This document shows positions 10,941 through 64,000 of a stretch of DNA of 64,000 bases, in pieces. A program made the translations under genes and the position numbers. This DNA comes from Amphiscolops sp. MND2022 (Eukaryota). Every line of letters begins with the position of its first letter. The first letter of the stretch is position 1. The stretch lies in contig OZ076409.1 of NCBI GenBank assembly GCA_964187785.1, positions 38,876,001-38,940,000 of the forward strand. Reading direction: 5' to 3'. The notes beneath the pieces were generated by a model. The model ran no database searches, was not told the origin of the DNA, and saw only the letters and a program-made list of their open reading frames with translations.

Positions 10941-11855
10941 TTACATGTCGCAATCTTGGTCTGTGGCCTGGGAGTCTGTCGAGATTTCCCTATTCAAACC
11001 TTTTTGACTGCTGAATTTTAGATTCGATCTAATGTTGTTTTGTTGGTCTTGCGGGCCTAAATGCTCTCCTGAGCTATTGTCCGGTCTAGTGGACCTGTGG
11101 GCCGATACACCGTTATAGCGTTTGGAGCCTTCGTCTGGCCCCGTAGACCTGTAGTCCACTTGACCACTTTGGTCTTCTGGGTTCTCATTCGGTCTAGTGG
11201 ACTGGTGGTCGATCTGACCTGAATAGACTCTAAGGCCCCTATCTAGTCCTCTGGACTGGTGGGTCATGTGACCAGATCGATCTCTACGGCCCTGGCTATT
11301 TGGTCCTATGGACCAGTAGTCCACTTTATTGGAATGATCTCTAAGGCCCTCATTAAGTCCTTGGGACTGGTGGTCCATATGGCTAAAATGATCTCCGGGG
11401 CTCCTGTCTAGACTACCGGACTGTGGGTCCCTAATTAGGCTTGATCCCGAATTTTGGACTCCTAGCACGTTTTGTATGCTAGGAAGTACCTTTTCAGCAA
11501 TTGCTGAGATGATAACTTCTGAAATCTGTGAATTTAAGTCACTTCTAATCTCATCTAGTTTCCTGGTCACCAGGGTCGTGATTTCATTATTTATTAACTT
11601 TGCAGGCTCAATGGTATTTTCACTGTTTTCCGGACTATTTGTATTATTTAATGACCTGAAGTCCTTGCTGGTAGGATTTGCAGTTTAAAGACCATTAGAC
11701 TCAAGGTCTAGCTCAGTCTCCCTATCTCCTAACTTACTGTCTAACTCATTTCTAGAGTAATTTCCTAACATTATATCCACTTTCTCTAAGTCGGACATCC
11801 CGTCCGATTGCCTTGACCTTTTCTCCTCAGCCTTTTGCTTCCTGGTTGAAGGCAT
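10941..11855 (-). pseudogene. Gag N-terminal segment encoded within the solo LTR, with 18-aa repeats and one in-frame TAA (11685-11687)
   Basis: MPSTRKQKAEEKRSRQSDGMSDLEKVDIMLGNYSR...VTRKLDEIRSDLNSQI...VLPSIQN aligns by eye with Gag at 49359. Confidence 0.85.
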
Positions 11856-12784
11856 TTGAAGAATTAATTGCTCGGGAAAGAATATATTGAGCTTTTATCA
11901 GTTAACTAAACTTGAACTGAAAGAAAGTGAAATGAACAGAGTAATAGCAAAGATTGGTCAATGAGCAACAATTTGTGTTTTGTGGTTTGTAACGTCGTGT
12001 TCAAAAGTTGTGTCCTTTGAACAATGAGGATCAGCTAGTTATACTAAATGGTGCATGACAAACATAATTTCAGTGGTCATGTTTCTAAAAATAGCAACTA
12101 AACTGGGTCAAAGTAACCCTAGGACCTGACGTCAACATTGCATCACTATTGGATCATGTCTAAAAATAACATCGTTTGGGTTATGGGTCTATAAATAGGA
12201 GAATGAGATAGGTACTGACAGGCGGTCTGCCTTTCAAGTCACGTTGCGCGTAGCTTGAAAGGTTAACGCTTGTTTGCACATTACGGTAATGTAAATATTA
12301 CATCATTGCGGACCAGTGGTCCTTTCGTCTAAATCTCGTTAGCAACTACAGCACTGCGGACTGGTAGTCCGTTTGACTAAATACTACATATTGAACAGGC
12401 AGACTAAGTGAATGATGAATACTAGCACGTGATTGGATAATAATCAAAATGGACTGCATGTCGAACTGACCAAAGTGAATTTCACTTTGAACGCGTTTCC
12501 TTTTTTGCATACAGCTTAATTACAGTTCCTGCTTCAATTATCAATCTAATAAACATCGATCATCCTTTTCTGGTTTACATTAACACTAGTATATGTTACA
12601 CGTTTAATAACAGTAAACTAAAATAATTTACATACTAAACATACTAATTCAAGTCTAAAAGTTTAAGACAAAGGGACCAATGGTCCAACTAATCACAGTG
12701 GTAGGACTCCGGGTATGTAAGACAAGTGACTGTCGTTAGGGGCCACTTGGTACTTGTTGCCGTCGCAGGCGGCAGCCTAGGACA
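10946..12784 (-). mobile_element. Solo LTR (1839 bp) of a Gypsy family related to the 48359 element
   Basis: Minus strand starts TGTCCTAGGCTGCCGCCTGCGACGG (cf. TGTCGCAGGCTGCCGCCTGTGACGG at 48359) and ends TTGCGACA; TTACA TSD at 10941-10945 and 12785-12789. Confidence 0.9.
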
Positions 12785-21248: not shown

Positions 21249-21448
21249 NNNNNNNNNNNNNNNNNNNNNNNNNNNNNNNNNNNNNNNNNNNNNNNNNNNN
21301 NNNNNNNNNNNNNNNNNNNNNNNNNNNNNNNNNNNNNNNNNNNNNNNNNNNNNNNNNNNNNNNNNNNNNNNNNNNNNNNNNNNNNNNNNNNNNNNNNNNN
21401 NNNNNNNNNNNNNNNNNNNNNNNNNNNNNNNNNNNNNNNNNNNNNNNN
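21249..21448. other. Assembly gap (200 N)
   Basis: Run of N. Confidence 1.
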
Positions 21449-22366: not shown

Positions 22367-22473
<107 letters not shown>

Positions 22474-24867: not shown

Positions 24868-24925
<58 letters not shown>

Positions 24926-27320: not shown

Positions 27321-27361
<41 letters not shown>

Positions 27362-29750: not shown

Positions 29751-29782
<32 letters not shown>

Positions 29783-32171: not shown

Positions 32172-32214
<43 letters not shown>

Positions 32215-32784
32215 TATCATCATCATCATCATCATGATCATCGGAGATCCATCGTAGTCCTAAAGTTTTCCCGGAGTGTACACTGAGTCTCCAAAACACC
32301 CAAAACCCTATGTACCAGAAATCTCACGGAAAATTTTATATGTTTTTTTTCGAACTCCCTACATTTGATCCCGCCAATAAATTAAAAATTTCAACAGTAC
32401 TCCACAAGCAAAAAAACAGGCGGTTCCCATCAAAGCTCAAAAAATGACATTTTGAATATCCTAGACTACTTGTAAAATTTTGGACTAATCGGAGATTCAT
32501 TGTACAACAACACTTTCGACTAAAGTCGCAACTTTTCTTCAGCGTCTACTTTTAATTTTCCCCTCAAAGGAAGTGCTAGCACGTGCGAACGAGTATAGTT
32601 ACTTTGAGTCAAATAATATTAGCAGGTGTGAAAATTTCGAGTCTTTTTCTATTTCAGAGCCGCTGTGTACACTTATTAAATTATTGACAGGTGTCATTTT
32701 CTCTTACAGCTTCCTACTGATTAGTCGGTCTAAAATTTTGAACGAAAAATTGTTTTCTGGTTATAGTTGTTCCAATACATTAGC

Positions 32785-33438
32785 ATGAGCGAAGAAGAGA
32801 CATTACAACCAATAGTTATTGGTATTTTGGGGAATGATACCTCGGAAATGATCGATCGACAACTAGCTGAAATGTCAACTTTTGACCTGAATACCACCTC
32901 AGATCTCGGGGTACAACTCTCCCCTGCCGCTGATCTTCCGGCGGCAACTTCTACACAGGTTGAAATTCCTCTAGAAGAACCAACCCATGGGCAGGCCAAT
33001 TTGACTTCCAAACGGCGAAAAATTCACAAAAAAACATTGAAGGAATCAGTACGTGACTGTTCAATTTGCCGCAAAAAAGTCGCAAAAATAGGACAGCACC
33101 TTGACAAAGTGCATAGAAACCTTCTACCAGAGCACCGGAAGTTCCTGATGTCGTTCTATTCTACTAAAAACGCCCGCGGTCCAGTTTCACAGTGTGTCAA
33201 TTGCCCTTTGAGGATGACGAATCCCAGGAGACACAATAATGATTTTCCTCGACACATCATCCTGAAGGTCAGAAATAAGGAATCAGATGAAGAATTCCCA
33301 CCCCAGATACGGGAGTTGTCAGAAAGAAATGATTTAGGGCCTAAATCTGCTGAATTGTTGGAGGAGTATTCCAAAAAAGGACTTACTTGCCATCAGACAT
33401 TGATAATCAGAGACGCTGTGTGCAGTATCGAAAATTAA
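32785..33438 (+). CDS. Zinc-finger ORF, unit 5
   Basis: As unit 2 with one in-frame codon deletion and a few substitutions. Confidence 0.55.
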   Translation: MSEEETLQPIVIGILGNDTSEMIDRQLAEMSTFDLNTTSDLGVQLSPAADLPAATSTQVEIPLEEPTHGQANLTSKRRKIHKKTLKESVRDCSICRKKVAKIGQHLDKVHRNLLPEHRKFLMSFYSTKNARGPVSQCVNCPLRMTNPRRHNNDFPRHIILKVRNKESDEEFPPQIRELSERNDLGPKSAELLEEYSKKGLTCHQTLIIRDAVCSIEN

Positions 33439-34629
33439 ACCGAAGAGGACTATATGGATACCCCGTCATAACCGGACCCCAATGATGCGCAAATACCTCA
33501 GCATGAACTAGAAGGTCTCAGCCCCTTATGTTCGAGGACAATTGAAGACGATGACGCATATATAACAGACCCTTTGAATACATCCCCGTCAGAGAATACA
33601 CTTGGGACTTTGGTTACAGCACCTCAAACAGGTGTTTGTGCTAACACAAACTCGAATTCTTGGTTGTCAACTTGTAGCACTTTTTCCCCCAGTTCAGTTA
33701 AAACTAGAACACGAATAATAACAGTTCCTGGAAGGTTTGTCAAAACAGAAACTCGAGTGAATCCTATTTTGAAGAATTGCACTGAAGAATGCGAATGTTC
33801 AAGGGCCCACGAGATCCACTGCATGCAAGCATAATTCGTTTTTTTTTGGTCTCCTGAGCAAAGTAGATGGCAAATTGTCCAAATCAGAGATTAGGAACCT
33901 CATGCTGCCAATGAAAATGAATTTGAAGGACCAAAAAGCTGTGCTCACCAAAGTGTACTGACAATAAAATAACTTTTGCTAGCATTTGGACCTTTAAACT
34001 ATTAGTTCCGTCCAACCAAAACTTTATTCAAACTTTCATTTAATGTTACGGATTGGTTTTGCATTCATTCCAGTGTTCAAGTCTTGGTATTTGTTGATAT
34101 AACTGAAGAAACATTCCCATGTTTCTCTTTTTTTGATGTAAACCCAGGATCTCTAATTTTCCTAGCTGGTACACAGCGTCTCGATTTTTTAAACTCAAAA
34201 CCATAAACGAAAGGTATCTCGAAACTGACGTTGTACGTGGCGAATACGTTCCCTAGGCGAACTTTAAATTCATGGTTGGACTGTTGATACAACCAACTTT
34301 TGCACCGTACTTGAAGTCTCCGATTTTCATTTTGCTGTACACAGAGTACTACATTTTCACAAATTTTGTACGCCGAGTCTCCATTTTTTGCATTTTCAAG
34401 CTGATTACTCCGTTTTTTAAACGGCTCTCAAATTTCTCCTGAAACTCGTCGTAGCAACGTCAGATTCCGTCTGTGGGTCAAAAATTAAGTTTACTAGAAT
34501 AGCCGAACATAAAAAACGATAATCGTTTGCTATTTTTTGTAACAAAACCAAGGAAAAGCACCTGAAAATTGGGACCCTGTACATACATTCTCTAATGATC
34601 GAGGGCCGATACACAGCGTCTATAATGGT

Positions 34630-34661
<32 letters not shown>

Positions 34662-34701
34662 TATAAAGAAAATTTCCAACATTACGGCGACTGAAGTTCT
34701 T

Positions 34702-47030: not shown

Positions 47031-48057
47031 TGTCATGCCTGATGCATGAAAATACAAACATCGATGTAGATAACTATCGTACATACAAAAGTGAAGGAAT
47101 AAACCGACGAACTGAGAACGAACACTGAAGAAGAAAAAGAATGTAGTGAATCAAACCACATCACAAAACTTGAACTCGAATTTACCAAATGCATCATCGT
47201 TATAAAATCTCCAAACAACTTTGCTATATTCACCCATATTTCATACATGTACTGCATATACTTTGTAAACCAAACTCGCAACATTTTAGTTGGCTAAGAA
47301 AGTAATGTAGGTGATGTACCATCATCAGATTTTTCCTTTCAATATTATTAGTCAAGTGATTAACATATGCAATATCCATTCACTCATATGATGCTAGTAG
47401 TGTAACCACATTAAAATACCAAGTATTGAGTCATGTAACTATAGCAACGCAATTCAACGCAATTGAATTTTTATTTCGGTGCTACGCCAAAATTTCGCAA
47501 TTACCAACCAAGGTGTGAACGAACACTAAGATATGATTGGTTGATGTGGTCACGTGACCAACGTCGCCATAATTGACACCAGCCAATATAGTACCATCAG
47601 TAGATTTTGTGTAGTTATTACGTACAGTTGCTTATCACATTAGTTCTCGATATCGCAAAATTCAACATTTCCAACCTACTACTATCAACATTCAATAAAA
47701 TCTTAAAACTCCATTTATTTTTCACAATGGTCAATACTCGTTCCCAAGTAAGAAGTTCTATCTCAGTGTTTATGAGCGGAATGGATAAGCATGACAGAAG
47801 TAGCGATACAGAAAGTGAATGTAGTGTCCCTGAGGTCCTTTCTAGAGACCAAAATGATGAGTTAGACAATGGGAACCTTATCCGTACTGATAACAACTCA
47901 GAGCAAAGATCGATCGATCAACGCTTCTCAGACATGAATAAACAAATTAGCGATCTTACTGGATTAGTTTTGGCATTAACTGAAAAGTTATCCTCCAATA
48001 TTGGAGAAGGGAACAATCAGAGTACAGCGTCAGATAAAGCCTGTGCACGTTCCGACA
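47031..48057 (+). mobile_element. Solo LTR (1027 bp) containing a gag-like 5' ORF (ATG 47727, MVNTRSQ...)
   Basis: TGTC...GACA termini; GTTAC TSD at 47026-47030 and 48058-48062; ORF runs out of the LTR end. Confidence 0.85.
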
Positions 48058-48358: not shown

Positions 48359-50001
48359 TGTCGCAGGCTGCCGCCTGTGACGGGATTTATTATCAAATTC
48401 CCCAAGAATATGCAGAATCCAACCCCCCACCCGGAGTATTGCCAATTTGAAAAACTTACGGTAAAACAATTCAAAACTATGCTTAATCTTAGCCCAACAT
48501 TACTATTTTATATTTTTACCGTGATGGACCTGTGGTCCACACGGCTACATCTCAAATTTCATTTTTACCTTACGAGAATATACTTAATTGATGAGTTCTG
48601 TGCCTGTTTGATTGATTAGATGAACTTGTAATGTAATCAATTGAATGTAAAGTAATGCTTGCTGAATAGTAGGAAACGTGTTCAAATGAACGCTTGTTGA
48701 CGTCCGGCGTACGTACCGGCCTTATTTAAATGAACCAATCAGAGTGCTGTACATTCTTATCATTATTATTGCTGTAGCCACGTGGACCGAAGGTCTACCG
48801 CGGTGCTATTAGCTGCCAATTAGTCGATGCTATTATGTGTATTGTAGCCGCGCGTACTGTCAGTCCGCGACGGTTACTACTATTTAGAGCAGTAATTTAA
48901 GTAAACTGATGTAGTTACTCGGACCTTAAGTCTATTAGTACAGTATTAATGGATGATTTGTTTGTTATGATACTTGTCAGACATGAAATATTAAAGTAAA
49001 CATGTAACTATTTAAAGCAAAATGTGCTTATTTTAGATCTAATATCACACTTACAGACCATTGGTCAATCCCTCCATTTTACCCTGATGCTATATTTAGC
49101 TGCAATTTGATGTAGTAATATTGACGTCATGTACCAAAATATAACCCGGGAGCTATTATTAGTAACATGACCAGCATAATTTTGCGGGTCATGCAGTGTG
49201 AAGTATATATAGCGGGGACCCGTAGGCCCCAGGATGATTCTTTCTGATTTCACGAAACTATCAACTACATACACTTCTGATTCAATTTGTTACGCTACGA
49301 GACTTATTGGAATAATAGACCATTAGTCAATTCATTATTAATCTCCAAAGTTAGTTCAATGCCATCAACAAGGAGACAGAAAGCCAAAGAGAGACGCTCT
49401 AGGCATTTAGACATAATGTCTGATGTAGAAAATGTTGATATAATGCTTGGTAGTTACTCTAGAGATGATGAAGAGAATAACATGAGCGAAAGTGAAATGA
49501 ATTTGGGCTCAGGGTCCAGTAGACCACAACAAAGTTCGAATGTTATAGGAGAGGATTTCAGGTCATTACTTAATACCAATAGCAGAGAAAATAGTGAAAT
49601 CACTATTGAGACCACAAGGTTGATAAATGAAGAAATTTCTAATCAAGTGACTAGAAAACTCAATGAAATCAAAACTAGTTTGAATTCCCAAATTCAGGAC
49701 GCGATTACAGTCGCAATAACCCGCACGGTGCTTCCTTCTATCCAAAACACACTAGAAACGCAGGTGAGGTCGAATTTCACCGTGGTGGACTGGGGGTCTA
49801 ACGGGCCACATCCCAGCCCAATGCCAACAGATTCCACCATAAAGGACAGAAGGTCCAGTGGGCTACACCGGAACCCCGAAGTAGGAAATTCACAAAAAAC
49901 GTGGGAAAATCGTCCCAGAACGTGCTTTGCACAGGAAAATAGTAGACTGAGGTCTAGAGAGAGTTCAACAGACTCTATGAATAGCGAACAAAATCGCGAC
50001 A
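48359..50001 (+). repeat. 5' LTR (1643 bp)
   Basis: TGTCGC...GCGACA terminal inverted repeat, immediately followed by TGG PBS; same boundaries as the TSD-flanked solo LTR at 10946-12784. Confidence 0.85.
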
Positions 50002-51125
50002 TGGTGACAGGAGCCAACCCTACCCCACATATGGTTCCTGAGTTTCTCACTGGACGTCCCATGCAATCCGGAGATCCCCTGCAACGTCAAAATTCCAACA
50101 ATAACGAGTCTCAGGTTACAATCCCCCAGGTCCCTGAGACTACAGGACCAACTACTCCTTCCGATCCCATTAACCGCCTTGCAGAAGTATTAGTTGGCAT
50201 GAACAACCGTCCATCAGCACAAACATTGATGGTACGCCCAGTCAGCACAACCACGCTGACGTTCGACGGCAAATCCGAGAAATTCGAACTCTTCGAAGAT
50301 CTCTTTCACACTATGATAAAAATGCAACCTGATATGACTGAAACAATGAAAATTAACTATTTTCATTCATTGTTACGAAAGAATGCGTTACAAACCTTTC
50401 GCAACATTAACACGGCAAACAGGCAAACTCTGGAGGACATCCTGGCAGTATTTCGCCGAAAATACGTTAAACCTGAGTCCCAGGCGACAGCCAAACACAA
50501 ATGGCACAGACTGGTGTTTGACCCAAACACCATGAAATTGCCAGACCTCCTTGAGAAATTAAATCAAGGAGCTGAAAAAGCGTTTGGCGAGAACGCCCAA
50601 GCCATGATCGATAGCCTCCTCTATGCCAAGTTGCCGTCAAAATTGAAACGCTCCGTCAATATGGCCAGACTCGAAAACGCGACCTACGAGGAAATTGTTA
50701 CCCATCTGGAACGAGAGCTTGAACTCAATGGACTTGAGGAGGGGGGTGACATCCCAGTACCAACATTGTCCACTGCCCCTACAGCAACACGACCAGGAAC
50801 TGGCCTTCTTTCCTCTGGCATTGATCCAAACATTACTTGCAACTATTGCAAGAAACCCGGACATGTCAAAGACGATTGCCGCAAACTCAAACGAAAGGAG
50901 GAACAACGCCGCAATGAAGGGCAGGATACCAAGAAAGAGTATCCCAAATGTCCAACTTGCGACAAAACAAACCACCCGGCGGAACGATGTTGGAAAGGCG
51001 CTGGAGCCCACCTCAAGCCCAAAAACCTCAAACTGGCGGACACTACAGCCGCAGATTCGTCCACCAGCCAAGAAGACGCAAACAACAAGCAAACAACCTC
51101 AATCTTAAAGAACCCAAAAAACTAG
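49359..51125 (+). CDS. gag: Gag with two CCHC zinc knuckles
   Basis: TFDGKSEKFELFEDLF capsid-like region; CNYCKKPGHVKDDC, CPTCDKTNHPAERC. Confidence 0.92.
   Translation: MPSTRRQKAKERRSRHLDIMSDVENVDIMLGSYSRDDEENNMSESEMNLGSGSSRPQQSSNVIGEDFRSLLNTNSRENSEITIETTRLINEEISNQVTRKLNEIKTSLNSQIQDAITVAITRTVLPSIQNTLETQVRSNFTVVDWGSNGPHPSPMPTDSTIKDRRSSGLHRNPEVGNSQKTWENRPRTCFAQENSRLRSRESSTDSMNSEQNRDMVTGANPTPHMVPEFLTGRPMQSGDPLQRQNSNNNESQVTIPQVPETTGPTTPSDPINRLAEVLVGMNNRPSAQTLMVRPVSTTTLTFDGKSEKFELFEDLFHTMIKMQPDMTETMKINYFHSLLRKNALQTFRNINTANRQTLEDILAVFRRKYVKPESQATAKHKWHRLVFDPNTMKLPDLLEKLNQGAEKAFGENAQAMIDSLLYAKLPSKLKRSVNMARLENATYEEIVTHLERELELNGLEEGGDIPVPTLSTAPTATRPGTGLLSSGIDPNITCNYCKKPGHVKDDCRKLKRKEEQRRNEGQDTKKEYPKCPTCDKTNHPAERCWKGAGAHLKPKNLKLADTTAADSSTSQEDANNKQTTSILKNPKN
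50002..50013 (+). promoter_or_regulatory. Primer-binding site TGGTGACAGGAG (tRNA-Leu-like, inferred)
   Basis: Directly follows the LTR-terminal CA; one mismatch from TGGTGTCAGGAG. Confidence 0.65.
51116..51122 (+). promoter_or_regulatory. Candidate -1 ribosomal frameshift heptamer A AAA AAC
   Basis: In gag frame immediately before TAG; pol is in the -1 frame and open across it. Confidence 0.6.
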
Positions 51126-54100
51126 ATATGCCACGACTCCAAATAAATGAAAAACTCCGTGTCCGACAATACATAATATCGGACCCTTCAAACGTCTATT
51201 ACACAGAATACTATACAACTCTTAAAGAAACATCATCAGCTGACTGGCAGCAGCAGATGAGAACTCCCCCTACTACTAGCACCACCGTGGACCTTATGTA
51301 CAACAGACTACAAACCGATACTAATACTATACGACTTATACCTCTCATTGATGACTACAACCCATACTATCCAGACCCTGACTATGGATTTGACCCCTAC
51401 TGGGACGCTAATTGCTACAATCAACATCATCTATACTTCTACCGAAATTTTAACAAACCAAATGCGAATATAGAACCGGACTCCCTTGCAGTTGACCAAG
51501 CCTTGAGTATGGTCCTTGCGAAAGCCCGAGTGGACCCATGGCAATATAACGTACCACCAACACGTCAAATGACTCACACCGAGCCTGATGACGAATTTCA
51601 CCGTGCAGGACCACAGGTCTCTCTGACTACAACAGTTGCCGCGCGTTTTGTGAACACACTAGTCACCAGAACTGGAGAACCAGACTATGTACCGCTGACA
51701 ACCAATCTTGGCCTCAAATACAAGCGACGAATGCTCTATTTTCCGATGGATTTTGGCGAACTAACTTTAGACGGCCTTGTAGACACGGGTGCCCTATCTA
51801 GTGCAATCCCAGAAACTGATCTACGTAAAATCCGATTATTAGCCCCTCAGTCTATTGTCAAAGAGGTCCCAGCACCCAACTTCCAAATTATGGTTGCTAA
51901 TGGACAGCTGGAGACTCCGAAGAGCACAGTCGAACTGAAATTTGAAGTCGGCGACATAGAATTTCACGAGATATTCATTGTTATGGAAAAACTCACCAGT
52001 CCATTGATTGGTCTTTCGTTCCTTCAAAGGAACAATACCATCCTGGACATGCGACAGGGTGTCCTGAACTTCCCTTTCTTTTCAATGCAGTTGAAAACTG
52101 CTGATCAAAAGTACACTAACGTTCTGGAACCCATCTGTATTAGAGAGGATGCAACCATCCCCCCTAATGGCCGACAATCGGTCCTTATGGCTTCACAACT
52201 GTACGAGAACACTACAGTTACTGGGATCCTTCAACCGAGCAACAATCTTACAGATGATGGCGATATTGCCTTCTGCGCTGCTCTAGTCACGCTGACCAAT
52301 GGTCAGGTATCAGTTCATTTGAACAATTTTACCGATAGTCCGTACACCCTCAAGAGGGGTACACAGGTGGCTAATTTCACTGTCCTCACGCCAGAACAGA
52401 TGAAATATGTAAAGCCCATTGACCCGGTGACCACATGGCACCTCCTACAAGATAACCCTGGAAACGCTGCTCATTATGCAAGTAGCTTGATCAAATCTAC
52501 GAAACCTGAGGACCTCAAGGAAAACTACTGGTTTCCAACACCGGAAGACCCTGGGGACCCTCAGCACCACACGCCAATCCAGAAAAGGATTTTGTCCGAA
52601 CTTATCAACCTTCAGGAATTAGAGAAACTCAATCCTCAGGATGACCCTGAGTCCAGACGACAATTCTTATCCAATTTTGACTGGACAGACTCTATGCTCC
52701 AACCTACCGAAATAGCTCGTATAGAGGACTTACTTGTCGAGTTTCATGATATCTTTGCTAGGCATCGCTTCGACATAGGCATGAACGAGGACTTCAAGGT
52801 CAAATTGACACCGAAAGATGATTCCCCGGCCTATAGTCAGAGTTTGCCAACGCCAATAAACCTCAAGAAAGATATCCTTGTAGAGTTAGCTCTCCTACAT
52901 CGCTATGGCATCATTACAACACTCCCATTCTCCAAATACGCAAGTCCCATTTTTGCACAAAAGAAACCCAATGGCAAATTGCGACTTTTAGTTGATTTAC
53001 GTAAAATAAATAAATTGATATCGGATGATTACATCAACAAAAACCATCCAGTAAGTACGCTTACAGACGCGGCCCAACACATGGCTGGGAAAAAACTATT
53101 CTGTAAGTTGGACTGTTCGCAAGCTTACCATTGCCTACAAATGGCGGACCAAAGGTCCATTGAAATGCTTGCTTTCAACTTCGCCAGCAGAACCTTTGCA
53201 TATAGACGTCTGGCAAAAGGCCTTAGTAGAGCCTTATCGGCCTTTTCAAGCTTTATGCGAGAATATTTGGACAAGGTCATTAAAGCAGACCAATGCGCCC
53301 AATACGTCGATGATATTGGTATTGCTGCCAACAATGCCGAACAACTCATCAACAACTTGAGGGCCACATTCCAATGCATACAACAAGCCAGTCTCAAACT
53401 TACCATGCACAAATGCCATTTTGGAGCAACGGAAACTGACTTTCTAGGACGTACCATCACTCCTGCAGGAGTGAAGCCGCAGAGACCACGGGTCCAAAAT
53501 TTCCTAGAAAATACAAAATTCCCGAAATCCAAGAAAGCACTACAGCGTTACTTGGGATTTTTGAATTATTATCGAAACTACATTCCAAGACTATCAGAAA
53601 AACTAACACCGTTTTCCAAACTGCTCACTACAGATGAAAAAGTCCTAGTAACACCGGACCTATTGGAAAAATTTACCGAGATAAACAAGGCTCTTGATCG
53701 ATGTTGCGAACTGGCACTCAAACAACCCTTACCGAACAAGCAAATAGCCCTCATGACTGATGCCAGCTTTTCGGCCGCAGGGTACGCAGTTCTCATCGAA
53801 GACGATCCACTCGAGAAGTACACTTCCACGAGGAATGCTTTCGCACCAGTAGCTTATGGATCCAAGACCTTTAGTTCTACCCAACTGAAAATGTCCATCT
53901 ACGCCAAGGAATTCCTAGCAATTTTCTTTGCCTTTAAGGAATTTGGACATATCTTTTGGGGAACCCCAAAACCGGTAATCATACTTACAGACAACAAGTC
54001 CGTCACACGCTTTTTTCAAACTAAAATTATTCCGCCGACATTATGGAACGCTTGTGATTACGTGATTCAGTTCAACTTCACAATAGCACATATACCAGGC

Positions 54101-56227
54101 AAAAACAACACAGCGGCTGATTATCTGTCACGTCTAGAAATCTCTCCGAAAGAAAAATTAATCCTCAGAATCAGAGAAGATATCCCTACAACGCCAATTG
54201 AACTACACGTTCAATCGGCCGGAGTTTCGGAAGAGGAACAAATCTTTTATACCGAGGATGATGACGAGACGGAAGAACAAATTTTACAACGTAAAAAAGA
54301 CGCTAGGGCTCACCCAACGCATCAGCTACCAGACATTTCGTTCGAAAAATTTTCTAAACACAAAAGTGACTACTACAAACTTTCAACGATCCAAAAATTA
54401 TCTTACACGAACTCTATAGCAGTAGAACAAAACAACGACATCATTTTACAGCAATTGCGCCTCAAAATATTGAAAGAAAGTTATTCCGAAACTATCCTTC
54501 TGCAAGACTCCCGCTACCAACATTACTGTCGCCAGATGGACCGACTGTCCGTCATGGATGAAATTCTCACCAGACAGTATTTTGACGAAACAGGAACTGT
54601 CAAATACAATCAAATGCTATTGCCAAAAGATTCTCGTCCAAGAACTACTCGAAGCCTTACATGGCAAAGCTAATAAACACCCCGGAATATCCAAAATGCT
54701 AATAGAGATTCGCCAAAAATACTACTACCCCGGCATTGCAAAACTTGTCAAAAAATGGGTTCAAGGCTGCGAAATTTGCATAAAAGATAAACGAATTCCA
54801 AACTCATCAATCACCCGGAGTTACTTAATTTGCCCGACTGGGACTTAGGCCCTGAGGACGCAATGCAAATTGATTTGTTACCTAACCTACCTGCGAGTGG
54901 CGGATACGAGAACATCATAACTGCAATGGACGTATTTTCAAGATATCTCTTTGCTTACCCAGTCACGGACGCTTCGGCCACAAATACGGCAAAGGTCATA
55001 TCTGATATAATGACCAAGCACACCTATTTGCCCACGACTTTGATCACAGACAAAGGTACGGCCTTCACGTCCAAACTAGTGGCTGAGATTGCCCAAATCT
55101 TGGGAATCCAAATAAAATGCGCAACTACCAAACACCCACAAACAATTGGCAAATTGGAACGTACTCATGCTAGTCTCAAAACAAACCTCAAGATGGCCTC
55201 AGGGGACTACAGGCGACAGTGGCATAAATATTTGCCTTCAGCCGTATTGAACTACAATACGACTTATCACGCTACCCTAGGTTGTGAACCATCGAGAATT
55301 TTCCACGGAGGAATCCCGTATAAAATATTGGATCACAAATTGGGCCTTAACCCAAACCCGAAGGTCCTACCGACTACAGATTTTGCAGACGAATTTCAAC
55401 GCCGCACGCAGATACTACTAGATTCTACAAAGAAAAACATTATGCAATCTTATTTGAAGTACAAAGAGTATTACGACCGGAAGGCCAAAGCGGCCCCTCT
55501 GAAACAAAATGACTAATGTTTTATTCTGCAACCTATTGCTGACCACCAAGGATCAAGAATACCATTTCGAGAATACAGGTGGATTGGACCATACGTCGTA
55601 GAAAAGGTTTTGCCGAATGAAAATTATATAGTCAGAAAACTCAATTCCAATAAAACGCAAATTCTACATCGGATCAGATTGCGCAAATATGAACCGAATA
55701 CTGTCCTACAAGACGTTAGACCAGAAGGCAATTTACAACGGGATGATGAAATTGTTATTCCGCAAGACGACTTATACGTTATTACGTGGGAAACCAATTT
55801 TGGAGAATTTCCCGATTCTGCCGAAGACACCGCAATTCCTACGAACCAAGATGGCCTTCACAACTCTAGCAACACTGACACTGATCCTATGACGCAAGAA
55901 GAAATTTTCACCGACGTGGACCTTAGGTCCACCGGGCCTCACCATGAAAAGGGCGCCAACGCCCCGGACAGCAATTTCACCGGCGAGGACCTTGAGTCCA
56001 CCGGGCCACACCAAAAGGATGATTTTGTCTTGACTAAAAAAACGTACTCAGATGGCTTAAATGACTATTCTGATGACCAAAAATCATCAGGAGGGAGCGA
56101 TACTATCGTGCCCGAAGTATTAGATGATGATGACGATATGATTGTAGAAAATGAAAGCCCTAGGGGAGGAAAATATAACCTTCGTCCTAACCCCACCCCC
56201 AACTTCACTGATGAATACAGATACTAG
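51122..56227 (+). pseudogene. pol: Pol (PR, RT, RNase H, integrase with GPY motif); integrase disrupted by two frameshifts (~54631, ~54815) and a stop (55514)
   Basis: LVDTGA; LRLLVDLR, KLDCSQAYH, YVDD; MTDAS, TDNKS, AADYLSR; H-H-CEIC; QIDL, ITDKGTAF, KLER; WIGPY; KYNLRP tail. Confidence 0.93.
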
Positions 56228-56399
56228 TCAGATATGTAAATTACTGTCCCGTGGCTAATAAATAAATACAAGTATTTTTTCGGGACCAGACTTACTTTTG
56301 GACTAAAATCACACTAAATGTGAAAGAACAAAGAATATAAATAAACAAAGGCATCAAGGAAATAAATGATGTTTATCAATTGAAACACATCCTGGACGA

Positions 56400-59300
56400 C
56401 TAGTGCTTATGTGGGCTCCCACTTGTATGACTACCCCGCTCAATTGAGGAGGTTCGTGATGACGACTGCTCCTGCTGCTTGCTGGAATGGGGACTCTGAG
56501 TCTTCTTAGGTGACTTGCCGGAACTGGAACTCTGAGTCTTCTTGGGTGATTTGCTAGAACCCTGAGGATCACTATCGACGCACAAGGTGACTTTGCGCCC
56601 CACAGTAGACTGGGAGTTGATACAATCTTGAATTCCAACTCGATCGAAGTGGTTAATACCATCCCAAGGACAATAGGTGCTGCTGAGGCCCGCGTTCCCA
56701 AAGGTCATCTCTAACTCGAGGAAACGAGCGATTGATGCATCCGAAGCAAGGGTGTCCAATCCACGGACGGCATTCTTTAAATAGGACTGTATGGGTGCAA
56801 CAACATCAAACAGCATACTAGTAGGGTCATCAGTCTTGGTGGAGCCAAACCTGACTGGAACGAAAGAGTAACGAGGCTCGTCGATACAAAGGCAACTGAG
56901 GCGAAAGATTCGGGAAAGATATACCCGGGACTTCAGGGCAGGCTGTTTAGACACGAAGTCTATGGCATCAGCAATCAACAGTTTGGGCTGCTGCATCTCA
57001 GGGTGTGATCGGCGCACCTCATCAATGAAAGAAAGGTACTCCTCCATGTACAAAGATTCCTCTTCAGACTTGAATACTCCTCTGAGTCGAAAACTTGAGA
57101 AGAGGTTCTTGAAACAATAGGCAGCCTGTTCCATGGTGTCTATTAAGAGAGTCTCCAAGTCAAAGGCGCCCAACCCTTTGACGATGTCAGAGGTAAATCT
57201 GGTCAAACCAGCAGCAGCACCAAAGAGATGCGCAACATACGCCCTGGCTTGTCGGCTGAATTCCTCACGGTTGTTTGCGACTAGCTGATCCAGGCTTAGA
57301 CTGCTGTTCTTCGCATCTTTCCTCTCCTTCTCTGCCTTACGTTTGCAGCAAACATCTAGTCTGGGCGTCAGTTTGGACCTAGACACGAAGTCATCCACTG
57401 AGAGAGCTCTTGAGTCAGGGATGGTATTCGGAGGATTCATGGTAGTCAGACTCAGACGGTAGACTGCTGGGGCGGACACACCTTCGGGCTAGTTTCTGAA
57501 GGTACTGGCAAAGTTCTTTATGCACATGAAACCCTCGGTCGCGTCTGGTCTTTAAATTGAGAACGAAACTGCTAGTATCTAAATGGAAGGCACATGCACT
57601 CAAGGAAACATATAATCAGGGAAGTGTGTATGTATAACACTTACAATCGCGAACCAGACGGCAAAACAGGTCCAAGCGACAAGGGAAGAGCTCGTCATAT
57701 ACAATGGACCATTCCAGATTTTGAGGCTGAAACCATTTAGTGATCAAAGCAAATTAGACACTACGTCGCATTAGCTACACTAAAAATTATCCTTTACCTC
57801 ATTACGGACGCCTTGTTTCTCCTGTTGAGGGGCATACTTGGACAGATATCCAATGACTTTTGACCAGTTGTCCAGCAATTCCTGACAAAGAGCAGGGAGT
57901 CCACAGATATCAAGGCGACCTGTTCTGATGGCCTGCAAAGATAACCGCAAAATTAGAATGGTAGTATTAGTGTTAGAAAAACCAAACATGGAAACCTACT
58001 TAAGCTACGGATTTAAGTTTAGCAAATGGAGCCAATTACCTTAGATAGTTCTGGAGCAAGTAACACCCAGTCCAATTCAGCACTGCCGCCGAGGGAGGTC
58101 ACGAGGTAGCGTAGCACAGAAAAGAAGTCTATCCGTCCGAAGACGCTCTGGCTCTTCTTGTGCATGAGAACAGACAATTCTAGCTCTTCGAATCGTGGGG
58201 TGCTCTGCAATCCGTTTGACGTGTAGGGGCTTTGGTCCAGAAGCTGAATTGTCCTGGCACTACTACCGGTACAACTGACCAGATGAGGCTTGGTTGAAAA
58301 CACGCCCATAATGTAGGAGATTAGGCATACTTCGGCTTGAGCTTGTCCCTGCACCCGCCCAGTCCGCTTGAGGAACACTCGACAGAGCTGATCGTCGTGC
58401 CAGAACCTAACGAATGATAACAAGAACACCCCATCTGTAGCGAATTCCACAGCATATTCACCAGATGTATTGATTTGAGCCCCGATGTCTGCAATGAGCT
58501 CGAGGAACATGTGGTGGAACATGACCTAAAATACAAAAGACTGTATGACTTTGGATAAAATTAACAATGTGTACTAGAGTGGCAACAACGACTTTGAAGC
58601 ACGACTACTTACACTAATTCGTTCTTTGCCCCAGTTGAAATCAGTGAACAAGGACTGGTGGTTCACTATCACCCCGACATCGCTCCAAAAGGCTTTTAGG
58701 ACTTCTAGGTCTCCGTGAGTTGGCAGGAACTTGGCCAGCACAGACAGCTGGATACGTGCTCGATTGTCCGAAGAGGAAGACATGTAGTCCGTACCCGCCA
58801 TGTACTCATCATAGAAGGGTAATTTTTGCCCGATTTCGACAAGTGGAGCACTAATGAAATGCGGCAGCTCGAATTCCAACTCATAGGGAGACAAGAGTTT
58901 CCCATCTTTGCCTCGGACTTGGTGGATCTTGGTCTTTGTTACCGGGTCGATCCGGTATAGATATTCATAGCGCCACCTTTGATCCTTTCGCAGATGCTTT
59001 TCCGAAGAATGGTGACGCAAAACTTCCCGTGCTCCTTTCCCGTAAATGGAGATGTTGGCCTTACAAATTTGGCAATAAAATTTGTAAGGATTCCACCTTG
59101 GGTCCATTGGGCCAGAGACGAAGGTACGAGTCCACTCCATGCCCTTGAAGTAGGCCTCTTTCATTATTTTGCAGGACCTTGTGACCTTCCTACGAGTCCC
59201 TGTACCTCGAGAACTAGTAGAAAACCTGCCTTGTTGACTGCGCGAGATCTTGGTCTTATCCTTGATTGCCTCGGCCTTTAATGCAGCGAGGGTTTGGGCC

Positions 59301-60724
59301 CCAGGACTATCGACCGATGTGTCCACTCCTTCTCCTTGCAGTTCCAGATGACCTCTAGTCGCGCAATCAGCGGCTCTCGGAGGAGCAGATATTTGCTCGG
59401 CGTCAGTTCTCTCATAAGTGTAGCCAATGCTAGAGAGCTCTTCGTCACTTCTGAGAACTCCACTAGTATCACTCAGTAACCCGGGTGAAGTGCTTCTTGA
59501 CCTAAGGGACGATCGGGAACCAGCGGTAGCTGGGGTGGCCGAGGAACGTACGGGTGCCTCTAGTGATAGTCTTCTAGTCTTTTGGATGATCCTTTCCAAA
59601 GCGTCTTGCGAAGCTCCCACAGCCTCGTCTGCTACAATCTTGAGGACGCTGCTCAACTGATTCTCAGTGAAGGTGATGACCGGGTGTCCTTGAGGGAGGA
59701 CAAAAGTTTCATTCGTCTGAAAATGCTCCTTGATAAGCGCTCTGCTGCTTGACTTTAGCCCTTGTCCTCTTGAAGTTTCGGGGAGACCTACTGTAGTGAA
59801 CATGCTTTCACCGTCACTGGACTCATTGTCGTTGCGCCGAGACTTGTAGTTCAAGGCCTGTGCGATGGTTGAACCAGCAGGATTGTGAGAAGAATCGACT
59901 CCAGCCTCAGCCATAAATTCACTACTGCTACAAGTTGTGGCCCTGAGGTCCTTGCGGCTGATTTCGACGCTTGTATCAGTCTCACTATTTTCATTGCTAG
60001 CGTCTCGGAAAGGAGTTGGAGCGCGTTGCTTGGCTGGGGGATGGCTCTCATGAAGAGAGGAGCTTCCAATACGGGGACGTTTCTGTGAACTTTGAGTTCG
60101 TTCAGGTTCTGATAGTTGGGAAGACCCTGGCGGAGGACCGAGAAATGAGACCTTTTGGCCGGAGGGACCTTGGCCTTTTGGGCTGAACTGAAAGCTCGTA
60201 GAAGGGATTAATGTAAGTGGTTCACTCTCACTTGCTTTGGAATTGTCACCTTTGCCTAAACGATCTTCATGGTCTCGCATGTCCTTCTCCAAACTTTGGA
60301 TTTTGCGATCGAGATAGGCCTGGATGCTTTCCCCAGAACTGCTGTTACCAGATGCGAGAGGATTGACGAAGGACGGAGAATAGTCTGGGGAAGGTTGCTT
60401 CGGAGTACGACCTCGAACAGGTGACCCAATCGACGCAGCATCTTTTACAGACGACCCTTGCTCTGTTGAACTTTGAGTCCCGCTTCCTTCAATGATCTCT
60501 ATACCAGTAGGAAGGCATCCGGTGGACGTAAGAGGGGACATTTCGTCTGTTCTGTTAACGACTGTGGGACTGATGGTCTCTTGGACTACACTACTTCGCT
60601 GGTCTAAATCATCATCTCCAGAGCCATTGGGGCTTTTGTCCGTTTGGGCTGGTTGGCCGTTTGATTCATTTCCTAAACGGAAAGAAATAAATTCGAGCGG
60701 TTCACTTCCTGCAAAAGAATCCAT
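56400..60724 (-). CDS. Spliced antisense accessory gene, ~1296 aa: Ser-rich N-terminus, zinc finger, degenerate hAT-transposase-like body. Exons 60724-58613, 58525-58040, 57932-57798, 57726-57645, 57578-57482, 57378-56400
   Basis: Five GT-AG introns (87, 107, 71, 66, 103 bp; phases 0,0,0,1,2) join into one stop-free frame; FYCQICKANISI...RHHSSEKH finger. Confidence 0.8.
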
Positions 60725-61864
60725 CTTGCCGCATTTAAAACTTCCGGAAGTAAAGTTCAGTTAATTCAACCTGTGTTGAAAACATTTCACGATGGAGGAA
60801 GTACTTGTAGTCGAACCTAAACCTTGATCAAGTTTAGTTAGACAAAATAAAAGAACCAACCTGATGTCATTTCCATGATGGGAAGGCAGAATTCTCGCTC
60901 AGTCGGTCGGTTGAAAATACTGGAATGGTATTTGGACCAAGGGTATGGATATTGTCTAATGAAGACTTGAGGATCAGCAATAACCAAAATGTCCACAGGG
61001 CTGTATGAAGTTCAGCAGTAAGGTTTCTCGTTAATTGGAATTCAAATTGGATAACAATCAATTCAAATGTTGCAAATGTCAGGAGTGAGGACTACTGGAT
61101 TACAGACACAGGGACTGTATTAAATCAGATTAACACTACTGATACTTACTAACTTACCTGGACTAATTGTCAAGTTTCATAAAATGATTAGAACCATAAG
61201 ACGATTAATCGTTTACTACTTTGTTCGGACGTCGTGGCCTACTAATTAGCTTTTTCATCTATTATTACCTACTACTTATATCATCTACTACTTGTACAAT
61301 TATTTTGCTATTATACCTTACATCATGGATTGCAACTGCCAGTGATATTCATGCCTTCATTCATTTCGAAAGATTACTACACTATTTAGATTAGTATTAG
61401 ATTAGAAAATCGCCATTTTATTCATTTTCCATCAATTTTCATCATCAATTCATCAACGCTTTCCGATTGGCTAATCCAATTGATGTAGCCGAGCGGACCG
61501 AAGGTCTTTGATGATGGATTTATTTACTGACAGTTTACTTGAGTTAGCACCTAACTCACTCATTAACTGCTGTTAAGTGTTTGAGTAAACAACTTACAAG
61601 TCCCTCAAGGACCAATTAACATGAAATTTACCTTAGTTGTTACTTCTAGAAATTCCGTAAAATTACAAATATGGAATGTTTGGCAAGAATTTAGGGAAGA
61701 TGAAAAACAGTTTCCCCGCTGGGGATTCCCGCGAAAAGGATGAAACCGCTAGTCCGAATAACTAGAAGAAAATCATTCAGTCAAGTTTCAAAAGCCAAAC
61801 CAGTTGATTACTAGCAAACCTCAAAATTGCCAAGAAAATCCTTCTTAGAAAATATAAATCTCAG

Positions 61865-62686
61865 ATGGAAACTCAATTCACAATTGATGAATTGGCCAAT
61901 TCTCTGTTCAGCCCGGCCTACTTCTCTTCAGAGGAAGAGGAGGATATGGAAGTAGACATTCTGTCTGTGTCAGCGCAAGGGACCGAACGTCACTCGGACG
62001 ACAGTGACATAGAAGTCATCGCCTGTTATCGCCACGTGCCTATTGCCCCAACTGAACAGAATGCCACACGCAAGATGACTACGGACCTCTCTAGCTGTGT
62101 GGACGACGGGTTGCCCGAATTCCCTTGGGACGACTTTTCGGACTTCTGGCCTGAAGATTTCGAAACAGCAATAGTCGAATTAGGAACTGGCCCAGACGCA
62201 ATCGGCAGGGAGAACAATTGTCCAATCAACCAATGCTCAAAACTTGTCCCTCAGACGGATACGCCGCTTTCTCCACCTTTGTGCGAGCAAGGGCCCAGCT
62301 ATGGTCGTTATGATTACGCTGGACCAAATGTGACAGATTTTGCTGTGCCCGTAAACTCCCACATCCAGGGAATTAGTGTGCGAATGGGGGCGAACTGTGG
62401 TGAACCGAACGCCGCAGCTTATGGAGATTGCATTGTGCGTGGCAGATCATACGAGCAAATCCGCGAGACTGCAGTCCTGACGTACCTTGGGTCGACTTCA
62501 AGACGAGGCGAGACGCATTACGATCAACAGAGGCGGAGAGATGCCTACCTAGCTGAAATGAATCAAGGGACAGTACTTTTGGTCCCTAGGGGAGTGTCGC
62601 AGGCTGCCGCCTGTGACGGGATTTATTATCAAATTCCCCAAGAATATGCAGAATCCAACCCCCCACCCGGAGTATTGCCAATTTGA
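61865..62686 (+). CDS. 273-aa acidic accessory protein of unknown function; last 92 bp lie in the 3' LTR
   Basis: ATG-initiated ORF, GC-richer than flanks; spans PPT and LTR start; EEEEDMEVDIL and SDDSDIEVI SIM-like motifs. Confidence 0.72.
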   Translation: METQFTIDELANSLFSPAYFSSEEEEDMEVDILSVSAQGTERHSDDSDIEVIACYRHVPIAPTEQNATRKMTTDLSSCVDDGLPEFPWDDFSDFWPEDFETAIVELGTGPDAIGRENNCPINQCSKLVPQTDTPLSPPLCEQGPSYGRYDYAGPNVTDFAVPVNSHIQGISVRMGANCGEPNAAAYGDCIVRGRSYEQIRETAVLTYLGSTSRRGETHYDQQRRRDAYLAEMNQGTVLLVPRGVSQAAACDGIYYQIPQEYAESNPPPGVLPI

Positions 62687-64000
62687 AAAACTTACGGTAA
62701 AACAATTCAAAACTATGCTTAATCTTAGCCCAACAGTACTATTTTATATTTTTACCGTGATGGACCTGTGGTCCACACGGCTACATCTCAAATTTCATTT
62801 TTACCTTACGAGAATATACTTAATTGATGAGTTCTGTGCCTGTTTGATTGATTAGATGAATTTGTAATGTAATCAATTGAATGTAAAGTAATGCTTGCTG
62901 AATAGTAGGAAACGTGTTCAAATGAACGCTTGTTGACGTCCGGCGTACGTACCGGCCTTATTTAAATGAACCAATCAGAGTGCTGTACATTCTTATCATT
63001 ATTATTGCTGTAGCCACGTGGACCGAAGGTCTACCGCGGTGTTATTAGCTGCCAATTAGTCGATGCTATTATGTGTATTGTAGCCGCGCGTACTGTCAGT
63101 CCGCGACAGTTACTACTATTTAGAGCAGTAATTTAAGTAAACTGATGTAGTTACTCGGACCTTAAGTCTATTAGTACAGTATTAATGGATGATTTGTTTG
63201 TTATGATACTTGTCAGACATGAAATATTAAAGTAAACATGTAACTATTTAAAGCAAAATGTGCTTATTTTAGATCTAATATCACACTTACAGACCATTGG
63301 TCAATCCCTCCATTTTACCCTGATGCTATATTTAGCTGCAATTTGATGTAGTAATATTGACGTCATGTACCAAAATATAATCGGGAGCTATTATTAGTAA
63401 CATGACCAGCATAATTTTGCGGGTCATGCAGTGTGAAGTATATATAGCGGGGACCGGTAGGCCCCAGGATGATTCTTTCTGATTTCACGAAACTATCAAC
63501 TACATACACTTCTGATTCAATTTGTTACGCTACGAGACTTATTGGAATAATAGACCATTAGTCAATTCATTATTAATCTCCAAAGTTAGTTCAATGCCCT
63601 CAACAAGGAGACAGAAAGCCAAAGAGAGACGCTCTAGGCAATTAGACATAATGTCTGATGTAGAAAATGTTGATATAATGCTTGGTAGTTACTCTAGAGA
63701 TGATGAAGAGAATAACATGAGCGAAAGTGAAATGAATTTGGGCTCAGGGTCCAGTAGACCACAACAAAGTTCGAATGTTATAGGAGAGGATTTCAGGTCA
63801 TTACTTAATACCAATAGCAGAGAAAATAGTGAAATCACTATTGAGACCACAAGGTTGATAAATGAAGAAATTTCTAATCAAGTGACTAGAAAACTCAATG
63901 AAATCAAAACTAGTTTGAATTCCCAAATTCAGGACGCGATTACAGTCGCAATAACACGCACGGTGCTTCCTTCTATCCAAAACACACTAGAAACGCAGGT
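62595..64000 (+). repeat. 3' LTR (partial, window end), again containing the gag start (ATG 63594)
   Basis: Direct repeat of 48359-49765. Confidence 0.95.

What the first reader, a model, noticed from the sequence alone, without database searches (positions are those of the whole stretch)
48526..61507. Palindromic GGAC-N5-GTCC motif scattered through the Gypsy element: candidate target of its own zinc-finger protein
Seen: perfect or near-perfect copies at 48526, 48784, 48921, 49055, 49216, 49317, 49787, 49844 (LTR), 55918, 55987 (integrase tail) and 61495 (accessory promoter region). The related solo LTR has it at 12310, 12358, 12674 and in its 54-bp array, although surrounding non-coding sequence has diverged. 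Established: Arabidopsis VANDAL elements accumulate motifs bound by their own VANC anti-silencing proteins. Inference: a dimeric factor, possibly the antisense hAT-like protein, binds these dyads as an element-specific transactivation or anti-silencing system.
Basis: partly seen in the sequence, partly recalled or inferred. Interest (0 to 1): 0.78.

Follow-up and report, generated by a model that had tools for sequence, protein, structure and literature searches.

The report
Retrotransposon coated with three-part DNA motif
A jumping gene in an animal-like genome carries one short DNA signature repeated along its whole length, even inside its protein-coding parts, and also carries a captured, apparently disarmed transposase that may bind that signature to keep the element active; the binding itself has not been shown.

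Summary
The motif is real and larger than reported. Its core is GAC-N5-GTC: 36 copies against 3.7 expected in the 14-kb Ty3/Gypsy element (best of 1,024 dyads), 14 against 0.9 in a related solo LTR, and background levels in a neighbouring BEL element and the rest of the window. It runs through pol and the antisense gene in all three frames, beyond what the protein sequences explain. Many sites have a third core, GAC-N5-GTC-N5-GRC, in both orientations and without covarying flanks, which points to a DNA site rather than an RNA hairpin. The element carries a spliced antisense gene with a CCHH finger and a hAT-like RNase H fold that appears to lack catalytic aspartates. Read back from homologous proteins, the motif marks this gene's own clade (rank 1 of 640) and not its sister clades (rank 375), two of which hint at a different dyad. 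Most likely the element's own dead transposase binds these sites, as VANC and TnpA do in plants. Against: finger-tip residues do not track the motif, the spacing also fits host Smads, and no relatives' DNA, expression or binding data were available.

The parts
48359..50001 (+). 5' LTR (TG...CA); the gag frame starts inside it at 49359; 8 GAC-N5-GTC cores
   Evidence: 99.3% identical over 1,409 bp to the copy from 62595; ends and a PBS-like TGG stretch from 50002 read from sequence; the right end is inferred because the 3' LTR runs off the window
48527..48545 (+). three-core site GAC-N5-GTC-N5-GGC(TACA) in U3
48777..48795 (-). three-core site in U3, opposite orientation
49359..51125 (+). gag, 588 aa, DUF1759 and zinc knuckle; motif copies encode D-x-x-S peptides
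   Evidence: Pfam; 3,047 homologues among 8,000 candidates scored
50918..56227 (+). pol (protease, dUTPase-like, RT, RNase H, integrase); interrupted by frame changes near 54.7-54.8 kb and a stop at 55514-55516; 13 cores
55919..56006 (+). two three-core sites in the integrase tail
58613..60724 (-). antisense accessory gene, predicted exon 1: long low-complexity region then a CCHH finger and helical domain; 6 cores
   Evidence: 36-member cluster at 90% identity
58040..58525 (-). predicted exon 2: RNase H-like fold of hAT type, catalytic aspartates apparently absent
57418..57932 (-). predicted exons 3-5; all four introns of the gene are GT-AG, 66-107 nt and 62-66% AT; the frame ends near 57.42 kb, so this copy looks broken there
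   Evidence: exon-by-exon check; prediction only, no RNA data
56400..57488 (-). 362-aa open frame, probably the C-terminal part of the accessory gene; 3 cores
   Evidence: no Pfam match, no longer homologue found, Atlas scores under 0.9
61488..61506 (-). three-core site in the 1-kb spacer between the two divergent accessory genes, close in sequence to the U3 site at 48777
61865..62686 (+). second accessory ORF, 273 aa, acidic N-terminus, no Pfam match
   Evidence: 77-member cluster
62595..64000 (+). 3' LTR, cut by the window end, preceded by a short purine tract
10946..12784 (-). solo LTR of a related family, TSD TTACA; 14 cores, 15 three-core runs
   Evidence: its gag N-terminus is 45-56% identical to four family gags
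11084..11429 (-). 54-bp-period array inside the solo LTR's gag frame, with runs of three and four cores at 8-bp spacing

Best explanation
The motif is a double-stranded DNA binding site of two or three GAC/GTC-type cores set 8 bp apart in alternating orientation. It has been gained repeatedly along the whole element, including synonymous and tolerant coding positions (shown). The binder is most likely the product of the element's own spliced antisense gene, a captured hAT-type transposase that kept its zinc finger and lost catalysis (ancestry moderately supported, binding inferred). Several fingers of an oligomer would each read one core, coat the integrated element about every 400 bp and occupy both the LTR and the divergent accessory promoter. 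The most likely purpose is to keep the family transcribed against host silencing (inferred by analogy; about two chances in three if the binder is right).
For: Enrichment is 36 against 3.7 and is confined to two related families among the repeats in the window. It survives synonymous-codon shuffling (pol 10 against 1.7, maximum 7 in 5,000 shuffles; exon 1 6 against 1.8) and uses all three frames. Three-core runs number 23 against 2.5 and 15 against 0.45, with none elsewhere, 14 sense and 10 antisense. The accessory gene is multi-copy (36-member cluster) and part of a family of 437 clusters. Its exon 2 folds as RNase H-like with Hermes giving the highest query TM-score listed (0.41), and the Atlas places a homologue with DUF4371/ZBED-type proteins (0.92). 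The motif's imprint ranks 1 of 640 in the gene's own clade and 375 in the sister clades. Hermes BED domains bind a quasi-palindrome cooperatively, three per DNA end (PMC10368747, passages and section 7). Transposases can activate cognate copies (10.64898/2026.08.24.746577, abstract, passages and section 7).
Against: No binding, expression or chromatin data. In Hermes the base-reading residues lie at the loop before and within the finger helix (PMC10368747 section 7). Here that segment differs between clades Q and B, which share the motif, and is nearly the same in Q and F, which do not. The structural matches are not significant (Foldseek E 0.02 for Hermes, 0.66 for the ZBED1 finger; the top finger hit is the RNA-binding TUT4 finger). 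The spacing also fits Smad composite sites, and GAC-N5-GGC is enriched (16 against 5.3) as a Smad would predict. The clade test rests on back-translation of proteins whose location in LTR elements is not shown; shared contig lengths with gag hits (6 of 71) are no more than chance. The solo LTR family's accessory gene was not seen.
Confidence: 0.5

Rival explanations
1. A host Smad trimer binds the sites, tying the family to TGF-beta/BMP signalling; the accessory gene does something else.
For: Smads bind back to back across a 5-bp spacer, as in GGCGCC-N5-GTCTG (PMC11907993, passages); GAC-N5-GTC has that geometry. The second core tolerates GGC (16 against 5.3) but not GCC (6 against 5.4). Three cores suit a trimer.
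Against: Of 100 half-sites, 51 read GTCC, 25 GTCT and 6 GTCTG. GRCGNC-N5-GTCT has 0 hits and GGCGC is not enriched. Dense sites inside RT are hard to explain for a promoter factor, and sister clades lack the imprint.
Confidence: 0.15
2. The element's own protein binds the sites but acts as a self-repressor (copy-number control), or coats the reverse-transcribed DNA for protection, nuclear import or target choice.
For: An even spread along the whole element (gaps of 4-1,764 bp) suits coating of cDNA as well as chromatin. CpG is only mildly depleted (observed/expected 0.75-0.88 in the element, 1.04 in BEL), so a demethylation role is not needed.
Against: Sites are densest in the LTRs and sit in the accessory promoter. 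The closest precedents are activators (PMC5735166; 10.64898/2026.08.24.746577).
Confidence: 0.17
3. Another host factor, or the 273-aa second accessory ORF, is the binder.
For: The finger tip does not track the motif. The 273-aa ORF is also multi-copy (77 members). The LTRs share other blocks such as TGACGTCA.
Against: The 273-aa ORF has no recognisable DNA-binding domain. Nuclear-receptor GGTCA-N3-TGACC has 0 hits. No other factor with this site came to mind (recall only; no motif database was available).
Confidence: 0.13
4. The palindromes act as RNA hairpins in the genomic RNA (packaging or export), or are by-products of protein sequence or composition.
For: GAC/GUC can pair. The finger's top structural hit is an RNA-binding type. 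One of six flank pairs shows excess pairing (22 against 14.8, p 0.017).
Against: The pairs next to the core do not covary (16 against 15.7; 18 against 17.6; n = 50). The third core cannot pair and occurs in both orientations. Codon and dinucleotide shuffles do not reproduce the counts.
Confidence: 0.05

Closest known systems
VANDAL/VANC anti-silencing system of Arabidopsis (PMC5735166, passages read)
   Same: Element-encoded accessory protein; short motif accumulated in the element, partly by tandem repeats; targets differ between related families.
   Different: VANDAL is a DNA transposon (MULE type, recalled) and VANC motifs are 8-9-bp non-palindromic words in non-coding regions. Here the host element is an LTR retrotransposon, the protein is hAT-derived, and the spaced motif fills coding sequence.
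Spm TnpA and AtMu1 transposase as sequence-specific activators (10.64898/2026.08.24.746577; abstract, passages, section 7)
   Same: A transposase-derived DNA-binding protein acting on cognate copies; loss of catalytic residues in co-opted forms.
   Different: Those act on their own DNA transposons, at the termini for AtMu1. The main text has 0 whole-word hits for 'retrotransposon' or 'LTR'. Here a class II protein would serve a class I element.
Hermes hAT transposase and its BED-bound subterminal repeats (PMC10368747, passages and section 7)
   Same: Finger followed by a helical domain and an RNase H fold; cooperative binding to a quasi-palindrome; three fingers per DNA end.
   Different: Hermes is catalytic, has a CCHC finger, and reads AAGT repeats near its tips. 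Here the finger is CCHH and the cores are GAC/GTC, 8 bp apart, spread over 14 kb.
Retand/TRP28 antisense ORFs of plant Gypsy elements (PMC11963269, abstract and discussion)
   Same: Antisense accessory gene between pol and the 3' LTR, proposed to bind DNA and regulate the element.
   Different: Unrelated domain; no target motif is named in the parts read. Here there is a candidate target and a spliced hAT-like gene.
Foamy virus Tas (recalled, no call)
   Same: Retroelement-encoded DNA-binding activator of the LTR and an internal promoter.
   Different: Few sites, no transposase origin.
Smad composite elements (PMC11907993, passages)
   Same: Back-to-back GTC/GGC cores across a 5-bp spacer.
   Different: Flanking bases differ, and no GGCGCC-type half is present.

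Membership tests
Ty3/Gypsy LTR retrotransposon | LTR pair, PBS/PPT, pol order protease-RT-RNase H-integrase | tested here: met
VANDAL/VANC | carried by a DNA transposon of the VANDAL type | tested here: not met
   the element is an LTR retrotransposon
VANDAL/VANC | VANC-homologous protein | tested here: inconclusive
   no Pfam family above cut-off for the accessory frames or 13 homologues; no direct comparison with a VANC sequence; other evidence points to hAT
VANDAL/VANC | target motif confined to non-coding regions | tested here: not met
   most of the 36 cores lie in open frames
VANDAL/VANC | motif multiplied by tandem repeats | tested here: inconclusive
   true of the solo LTR's 54-bp array and the integrase-tail pair; most sites in the element are dispersed
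VANDAL/VANC | motif differs between related families | tested here: inconclusive
   imprint present in clades Q and B, absent in C-G; a different dyad in E and F is post hoc; proteins only
VANDAL/VANC | sequence-specific binding and loss of silencing marks | not testable with these tools
   needs EMSA, ChIP and knock-down
hAT transposase | N-terminal BED zinc finger | tested here: inconclusive
   C33, C36, H53, H59 kept in 29, 30, 32 and 33 of 34 rows; ZBED1 BED is Foldseek rank 2 at E 0.66; no Pfam zf-BED hit
hAT transposase | RNase H-like core | tested here: met
   model pLDDT 65.6; RNase H-fold proteins dominate Foldseek, Hermes TMq 0.41, E 0.021; Hermes Z 4.9, rmsd 3.3, 103 aligned, tied with many; Atlas 0.92 for homologue P0012. 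Fold met, family assignment moderate
hAT transposase | intact DDE triad | tested here: not met
   strand 4 has no conserved Asp; strand 1 has Glu in 43 of 51 at the inferred first position, with an Asp four residues later in 39 of 51. The register rests on recalled Hermes positions; the third residue was not located
hAT transposase | C-terminal dimerisation domain | tested here: inconclusive
   the 362-aa frame gave no Pfam, homologue or Atlas support
hAT transposase | terminal inverted repeats and 8-bp TSD around the gene | not tested
   no dedicated search was made
Smad composite element | back-to-back cores with 5-bp spacer | tested here: met
   PMC11907993
Smad composite element | GTCT(G) and GGCGCC-type half-sites | tested here: not met
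   GTCTG 6 of 100 half-sites; GRCGNC-N5-GTCT 0 hits

The most novel reading that the evidence does not exclude
A lineage of animal LTR retrotransposons captured a hAT transposase, disarmed it and uses it as a family-specific anti-silencing or activating factor. Its target has been written into the whole element, codons included, and different subfamilies have switched to different 13-bp dyads of the same geometry (GGAC-N5-GTCC in one clade, possibly TTCA-N5-TGAA in others). That would be a VANC-like protein-target system in a retroelement and outside plants.
Probability: 0.33. Interest if true: 0.92.

Novelty: new variant of a known kind. Interest (0 to 1): 0.76.

Why it matters
Sequence-specific counter-silencing by transposon proteins is established for plant DNA transposons in the papers read. 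Antisense accessory genes of LTR elements have long lacked a known target. This element offers a protein and a sharply defined candidate site together, so the question can be tested directly. It would also show a DNA-transposon protein working for a retrotransposon, and selection for a protein-binding site shaping the codons of reverse transcriptase. Even if a host factor binds it, a motif enriched tenfold through pol is unusual. The back-translation test is reusable: it recovered the DNA motif from protein sequences alone.

Tried and rejected
No genome is held for the window; no sequencing run was listed, so expression and splicing are untested. The metagenome scan gave 2 loci, neither with the core (L001 is a 1.1-kb pol fragment, 77% identical over 99 aa, with no accessory gene in view). 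The viral-contig scan found no relative. Five look-ups of earlier findings returned nothing. The homodimer prediction for the finger region gave no answer. The pol row of the codon shuffle was out of frame and was replaced. A first imprint screen on whole proteins was swamped by the shared finger domain (clade rows) and was redone on N-terminal parts. EM motif fitting drifted to a diffuse 8-bp-periodic G-N-C model, so direct counts were used. Profile searches of solved structures found nothing meaningful. The wide fold search of the finger model showed no clear match. The S-x-x-E excess in clades C-G (127 against 84) could be kinase sites, so only other frames were counted for the second dyad. 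Five literature searches (listings only, apart from the papers named) showed no description of a hAT-like gene with a cognate motif in an LTR element; the library lacks most subscription journals and Repbase entries. The host was not determined; a resemblance to repeats of acoel worms is recalled and untested (searches were listings only).
Full report
Observation. The exact motif GGAC-N5-GTCC occurs 14 times in the window, against 0-2 for each other spacer from 0 to 11, and all 14 lie in the Gypsy element or the solo LTR. That core is the real signal: 36 copies against 3.7 expected in 48359-62594, first of 1,024 spaced trimer dyads (P about 2e-23). By region, against 200 dinucleotide shuffles, the counts are 8 (0.23) in the 5' LTR, 13 (0.86) in gag-pol, 15 (1.43) in the accessory region and 14 (0.29) in the solo LTR. 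The BEL/Pao element has 3 (2.17) and the two remaining stretches 0 (0.31) and 3 (4.79). A third family's solo LTR at 47031-48057 has none.

Anatomy. The element has LTRs 99.3% identical over 1,409 bp, a gag frame that starts inside the LTR, and pol in Ty3/Gypsy order, interrupted near 54.7-54.8 kb and at 55514-55516. Between pol and the 3' LTR lie two divergent accessory genes. The antisense one has five predicted exons with GT-AG introns of 66-107 nt and no internal stops; its frame ends near 57.42 kb, where a 362-aa frame takes over. The sense one encodes 273 aa. Both are multi-copy: clusters of 36 and 77 members at 90% identity. The host was not determined; no genome or sequencing run was available.

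The motif is under DNA-level selection. With the protein held fixed and synonymous codons shuffled, pol has 10 cores against 1.7 (maximum 7 in 5,000), in frames 0, 1 and 2 four, five and one times. Exon 1 has 6 against 1.8, the 362-aa frame 3 against 0.5, the integrase tail 3 against 0.4, gag 3 against 0.7 and the solo LTR's gag 8 against 2.4. The 273-aa ORF has 2 against 0.45 (p 0.06); exon 2 and the integrase core have none; BEL gag and pol have 1 against 0.9 and 2 against 0.6. In 79 gag homologues, 151 of 152 D-x-x-S peptides in the variable region have a third residue with a G-ending codon, as the motif requires, whereas 27% of residues there lack one (related sequences, so not independent).

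The site is often tripartite. Runs of three G-N-C cores at 8-bp spacing number 23 against 2.5 in the element and 15 against 0.45 in the solo LTR, with 0 in BEL (1.4) and 0 in the 35.6-kb stretch between them (1.5); runs of four are rare, 1 and 3. The main form is GAC-N5-GTC-N5-GRC, often followed by TACA or TAAA. It occurs 14 times in the elements' sense orientation and 10 times antisense. The bases flanking the core do not covary (16 Watson-Crick pairs against 15.7, and 18 against 17.6, n = 50); one of six pairs tested showed an excess (22 against 14.8, p 0.017). I read this as a double-stranded DNA site for an oligomer, not an RNA hairpin. In a loose alignment of the two U3 regions only about two or three sites are in register, so sites have turned over.

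The candidate binder. The finger region has 437 relatives at E up to 0.001 among 50% clusters; all 10 looked up are unnamed ENA proteins. Its four zinc ligands are kept in 29-33 of 34 rows. The model (pLDDT 87) has only weak matches: TUT4 finger E 0.43, ZBED1 BED E 0.66. Exon 2 (71 relatives among 111 candidates) models as an RNase H-like fold (pLDDT 66). No Foldseek match reaches E 0.001, but Hermes has the highest query TM-score listed (0.41), and VIA aligns residues 1-110 to Hermes 149-264 (Z 4.9, rmsd 3.3, 103 aligned, tied with many). Homologue P0012, which spans both exons in one frame (37% identical), falls with DUF4371, FAM200-ZBED5 and ZBED1 clusters in the Atlas (0.92, 155-161 shared features). 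Strand 4 has no conserved Asp, and strand 1 has Glu in 43 of 51 at the inferred first catalytic position, with an Asp four residues on in 39 of 51; the register uses recalled Hermes positions. A catalytically dead hAT derivative is therefore likely but not proven.

Does the motif follow the gene? With no DNA of relatives, I scored how well protein sequences are compatible with each of 640 dyads against local shuffles. As a control, the window's own proteins rank GAC-N5-GTC first (5.05 against 2.34) and the BEL proteins show nothing (2.0 against 1.8). A tree of 34 finger regions splits 12 from 22 rows (support 96/92), and the 150 listed hits were assigned by best BLAST hit. Of these, 58 with at least 60 residues before the finger were used; the singleton P0043 was left out. 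In the query's side (clades Q and B, 28 sequences) the motif ranks 1 (11.9 against 6.4); on the other side (30 sequences) it ranks 293 (9.3 against 9.3). After removing similar sequences, the ranks are 1 (11 sequences; z 4.9, 1.7 and 2.8 in the three frames; GTC-N5-GAC second) and 375 (14 sequences). Per protein, 15 of 17 against 8 of 19 are positive (p 3.5e-4). Clades E and F instead favour TTC-N7-GAA even outside the S-x-x-E frame (2.0 against 0.65 and 2.0 against 0.69; G, Q and B show none). That second dyad was picked after the fact and is only a lead. One F member and one Q member lie on contigs of equal length, so both clades probably share a genome. Against the model, the finger-tip segment differs between Q and B and is nearly the same in Q and F, and it is not shown that the distant proteins sit in LTR elements.

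Mechanism and rivals. Most likely (0.5) an oligomer of the element's own dead transposase binds the sites, each finger reading one core, coats the element about every 400 bp and occupies the LTR and the accessory promoter, most plausibly to keep the family expressed. The site and its selection are shown; the binder and the function are inferred. The same protein could instead repress the element or coat its cDNA (0.17). A host Smad trimer fits the 5-bp back-to-back geometry (PMC11907993, passages) and the tolerance of GGC but not GCC in the second core (16 against 5.3; 6 against 5.4), but only 6 of 100 half-sites are GTCTG and the composite consensus has 0 hits (0.15). Another host factor or the 273-aa ORF (0.13) and RNA hairpins or compositional by-product (0.05) remain.

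Comparison. VANC binds short motifs that accumulated by tandem repetition in non-coding regions of VANDAL elements and differ between families (PMC5735166, passages). TnpA derives from a transposase, and the AtMu1 transposase activates cognate copies (10.64898/2026.08.24.746577; abstract, passages, section 7; supplements not seen). Hermes BED domains bind a quasi-palindrome cooperatively, three per end (PMC10368747, passages and section 7). Retand elements carry antisense TRP28 genes proposed to regulate them (PMC11963269, abstract and discussion). PMC12859917 (passages) added nothing on retroelements. The element may work like these but is not a member of VANDAL/VANC, and its gene is not an intact hAT transposase. 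Five searches listed no description of this arrangement, within a library that lacks most subscription journals.

Verdict. A real, strongly selected, family-specific DNA motif with a credible element-encoded binder: a new variant of a known kind, interest 0.76.

Noticed in passing
window 47031-48057: Solo LTR of a third family (TSD GTTAC) with a gag-like frame starting inside it; no GAC-N5-GTC core and no clearly enriched dyad.
   Followed up: partly
window 239-7865 (minus strand): BEL/Pao element with 325-bp LTRs 99.7% identical and two long open frames; used as the negative control.
   Followed up: partly
window 22400-34700: Five tandem copies of a 2.4-kb unit, each with an (ATC)n tract and a 224-aa frame holding a Cys/His-rich stretch; no Pfam match.
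   Followed up: no
window 10613-13243: The related solo LTR sits inside a fold-back structure; a 361-bp inverted duplication (10613-10973 and 12883-13243) includes the LTR's end.
   Followed up: no
window 61865-62686: The 273-aa accessory ORF has two acidic hydrophobic stretches resembling SUMO-interacting motifs (label recalled); at least one is found in 13 of 15 listed cluster members. A lead for contact with SUMO-dependent silencing.
   Followed up: partly
window 49359-50001 and 11855-10946: In both related families gag starts inside the LTR and, in the full element, reads through the primer-binding site; homologous gags keep the peptide encoded there.
   Followed up: partly
window 50918-54670, aa 406-490: Weak dUTPase match between protease and RT (E 0.005, below cut-off).
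   Followed up: no
proteins of clades E and F (e.g. P0011, P0023, P0039): Hint of a different dyad, TTC(A/C)-N5-(T/G)GAA, of the same span; chosen after the fact.
   Followed up: partly
window 49121-49128 and about 12128-12135: Both LTRs keep a TGACGTCA block and other short shared blocks, probably host-factor sites (CRE label recalled).
   Followed up: no
window 21249-21448: A 200-base run of N (assembly gap).
   Followed up: no
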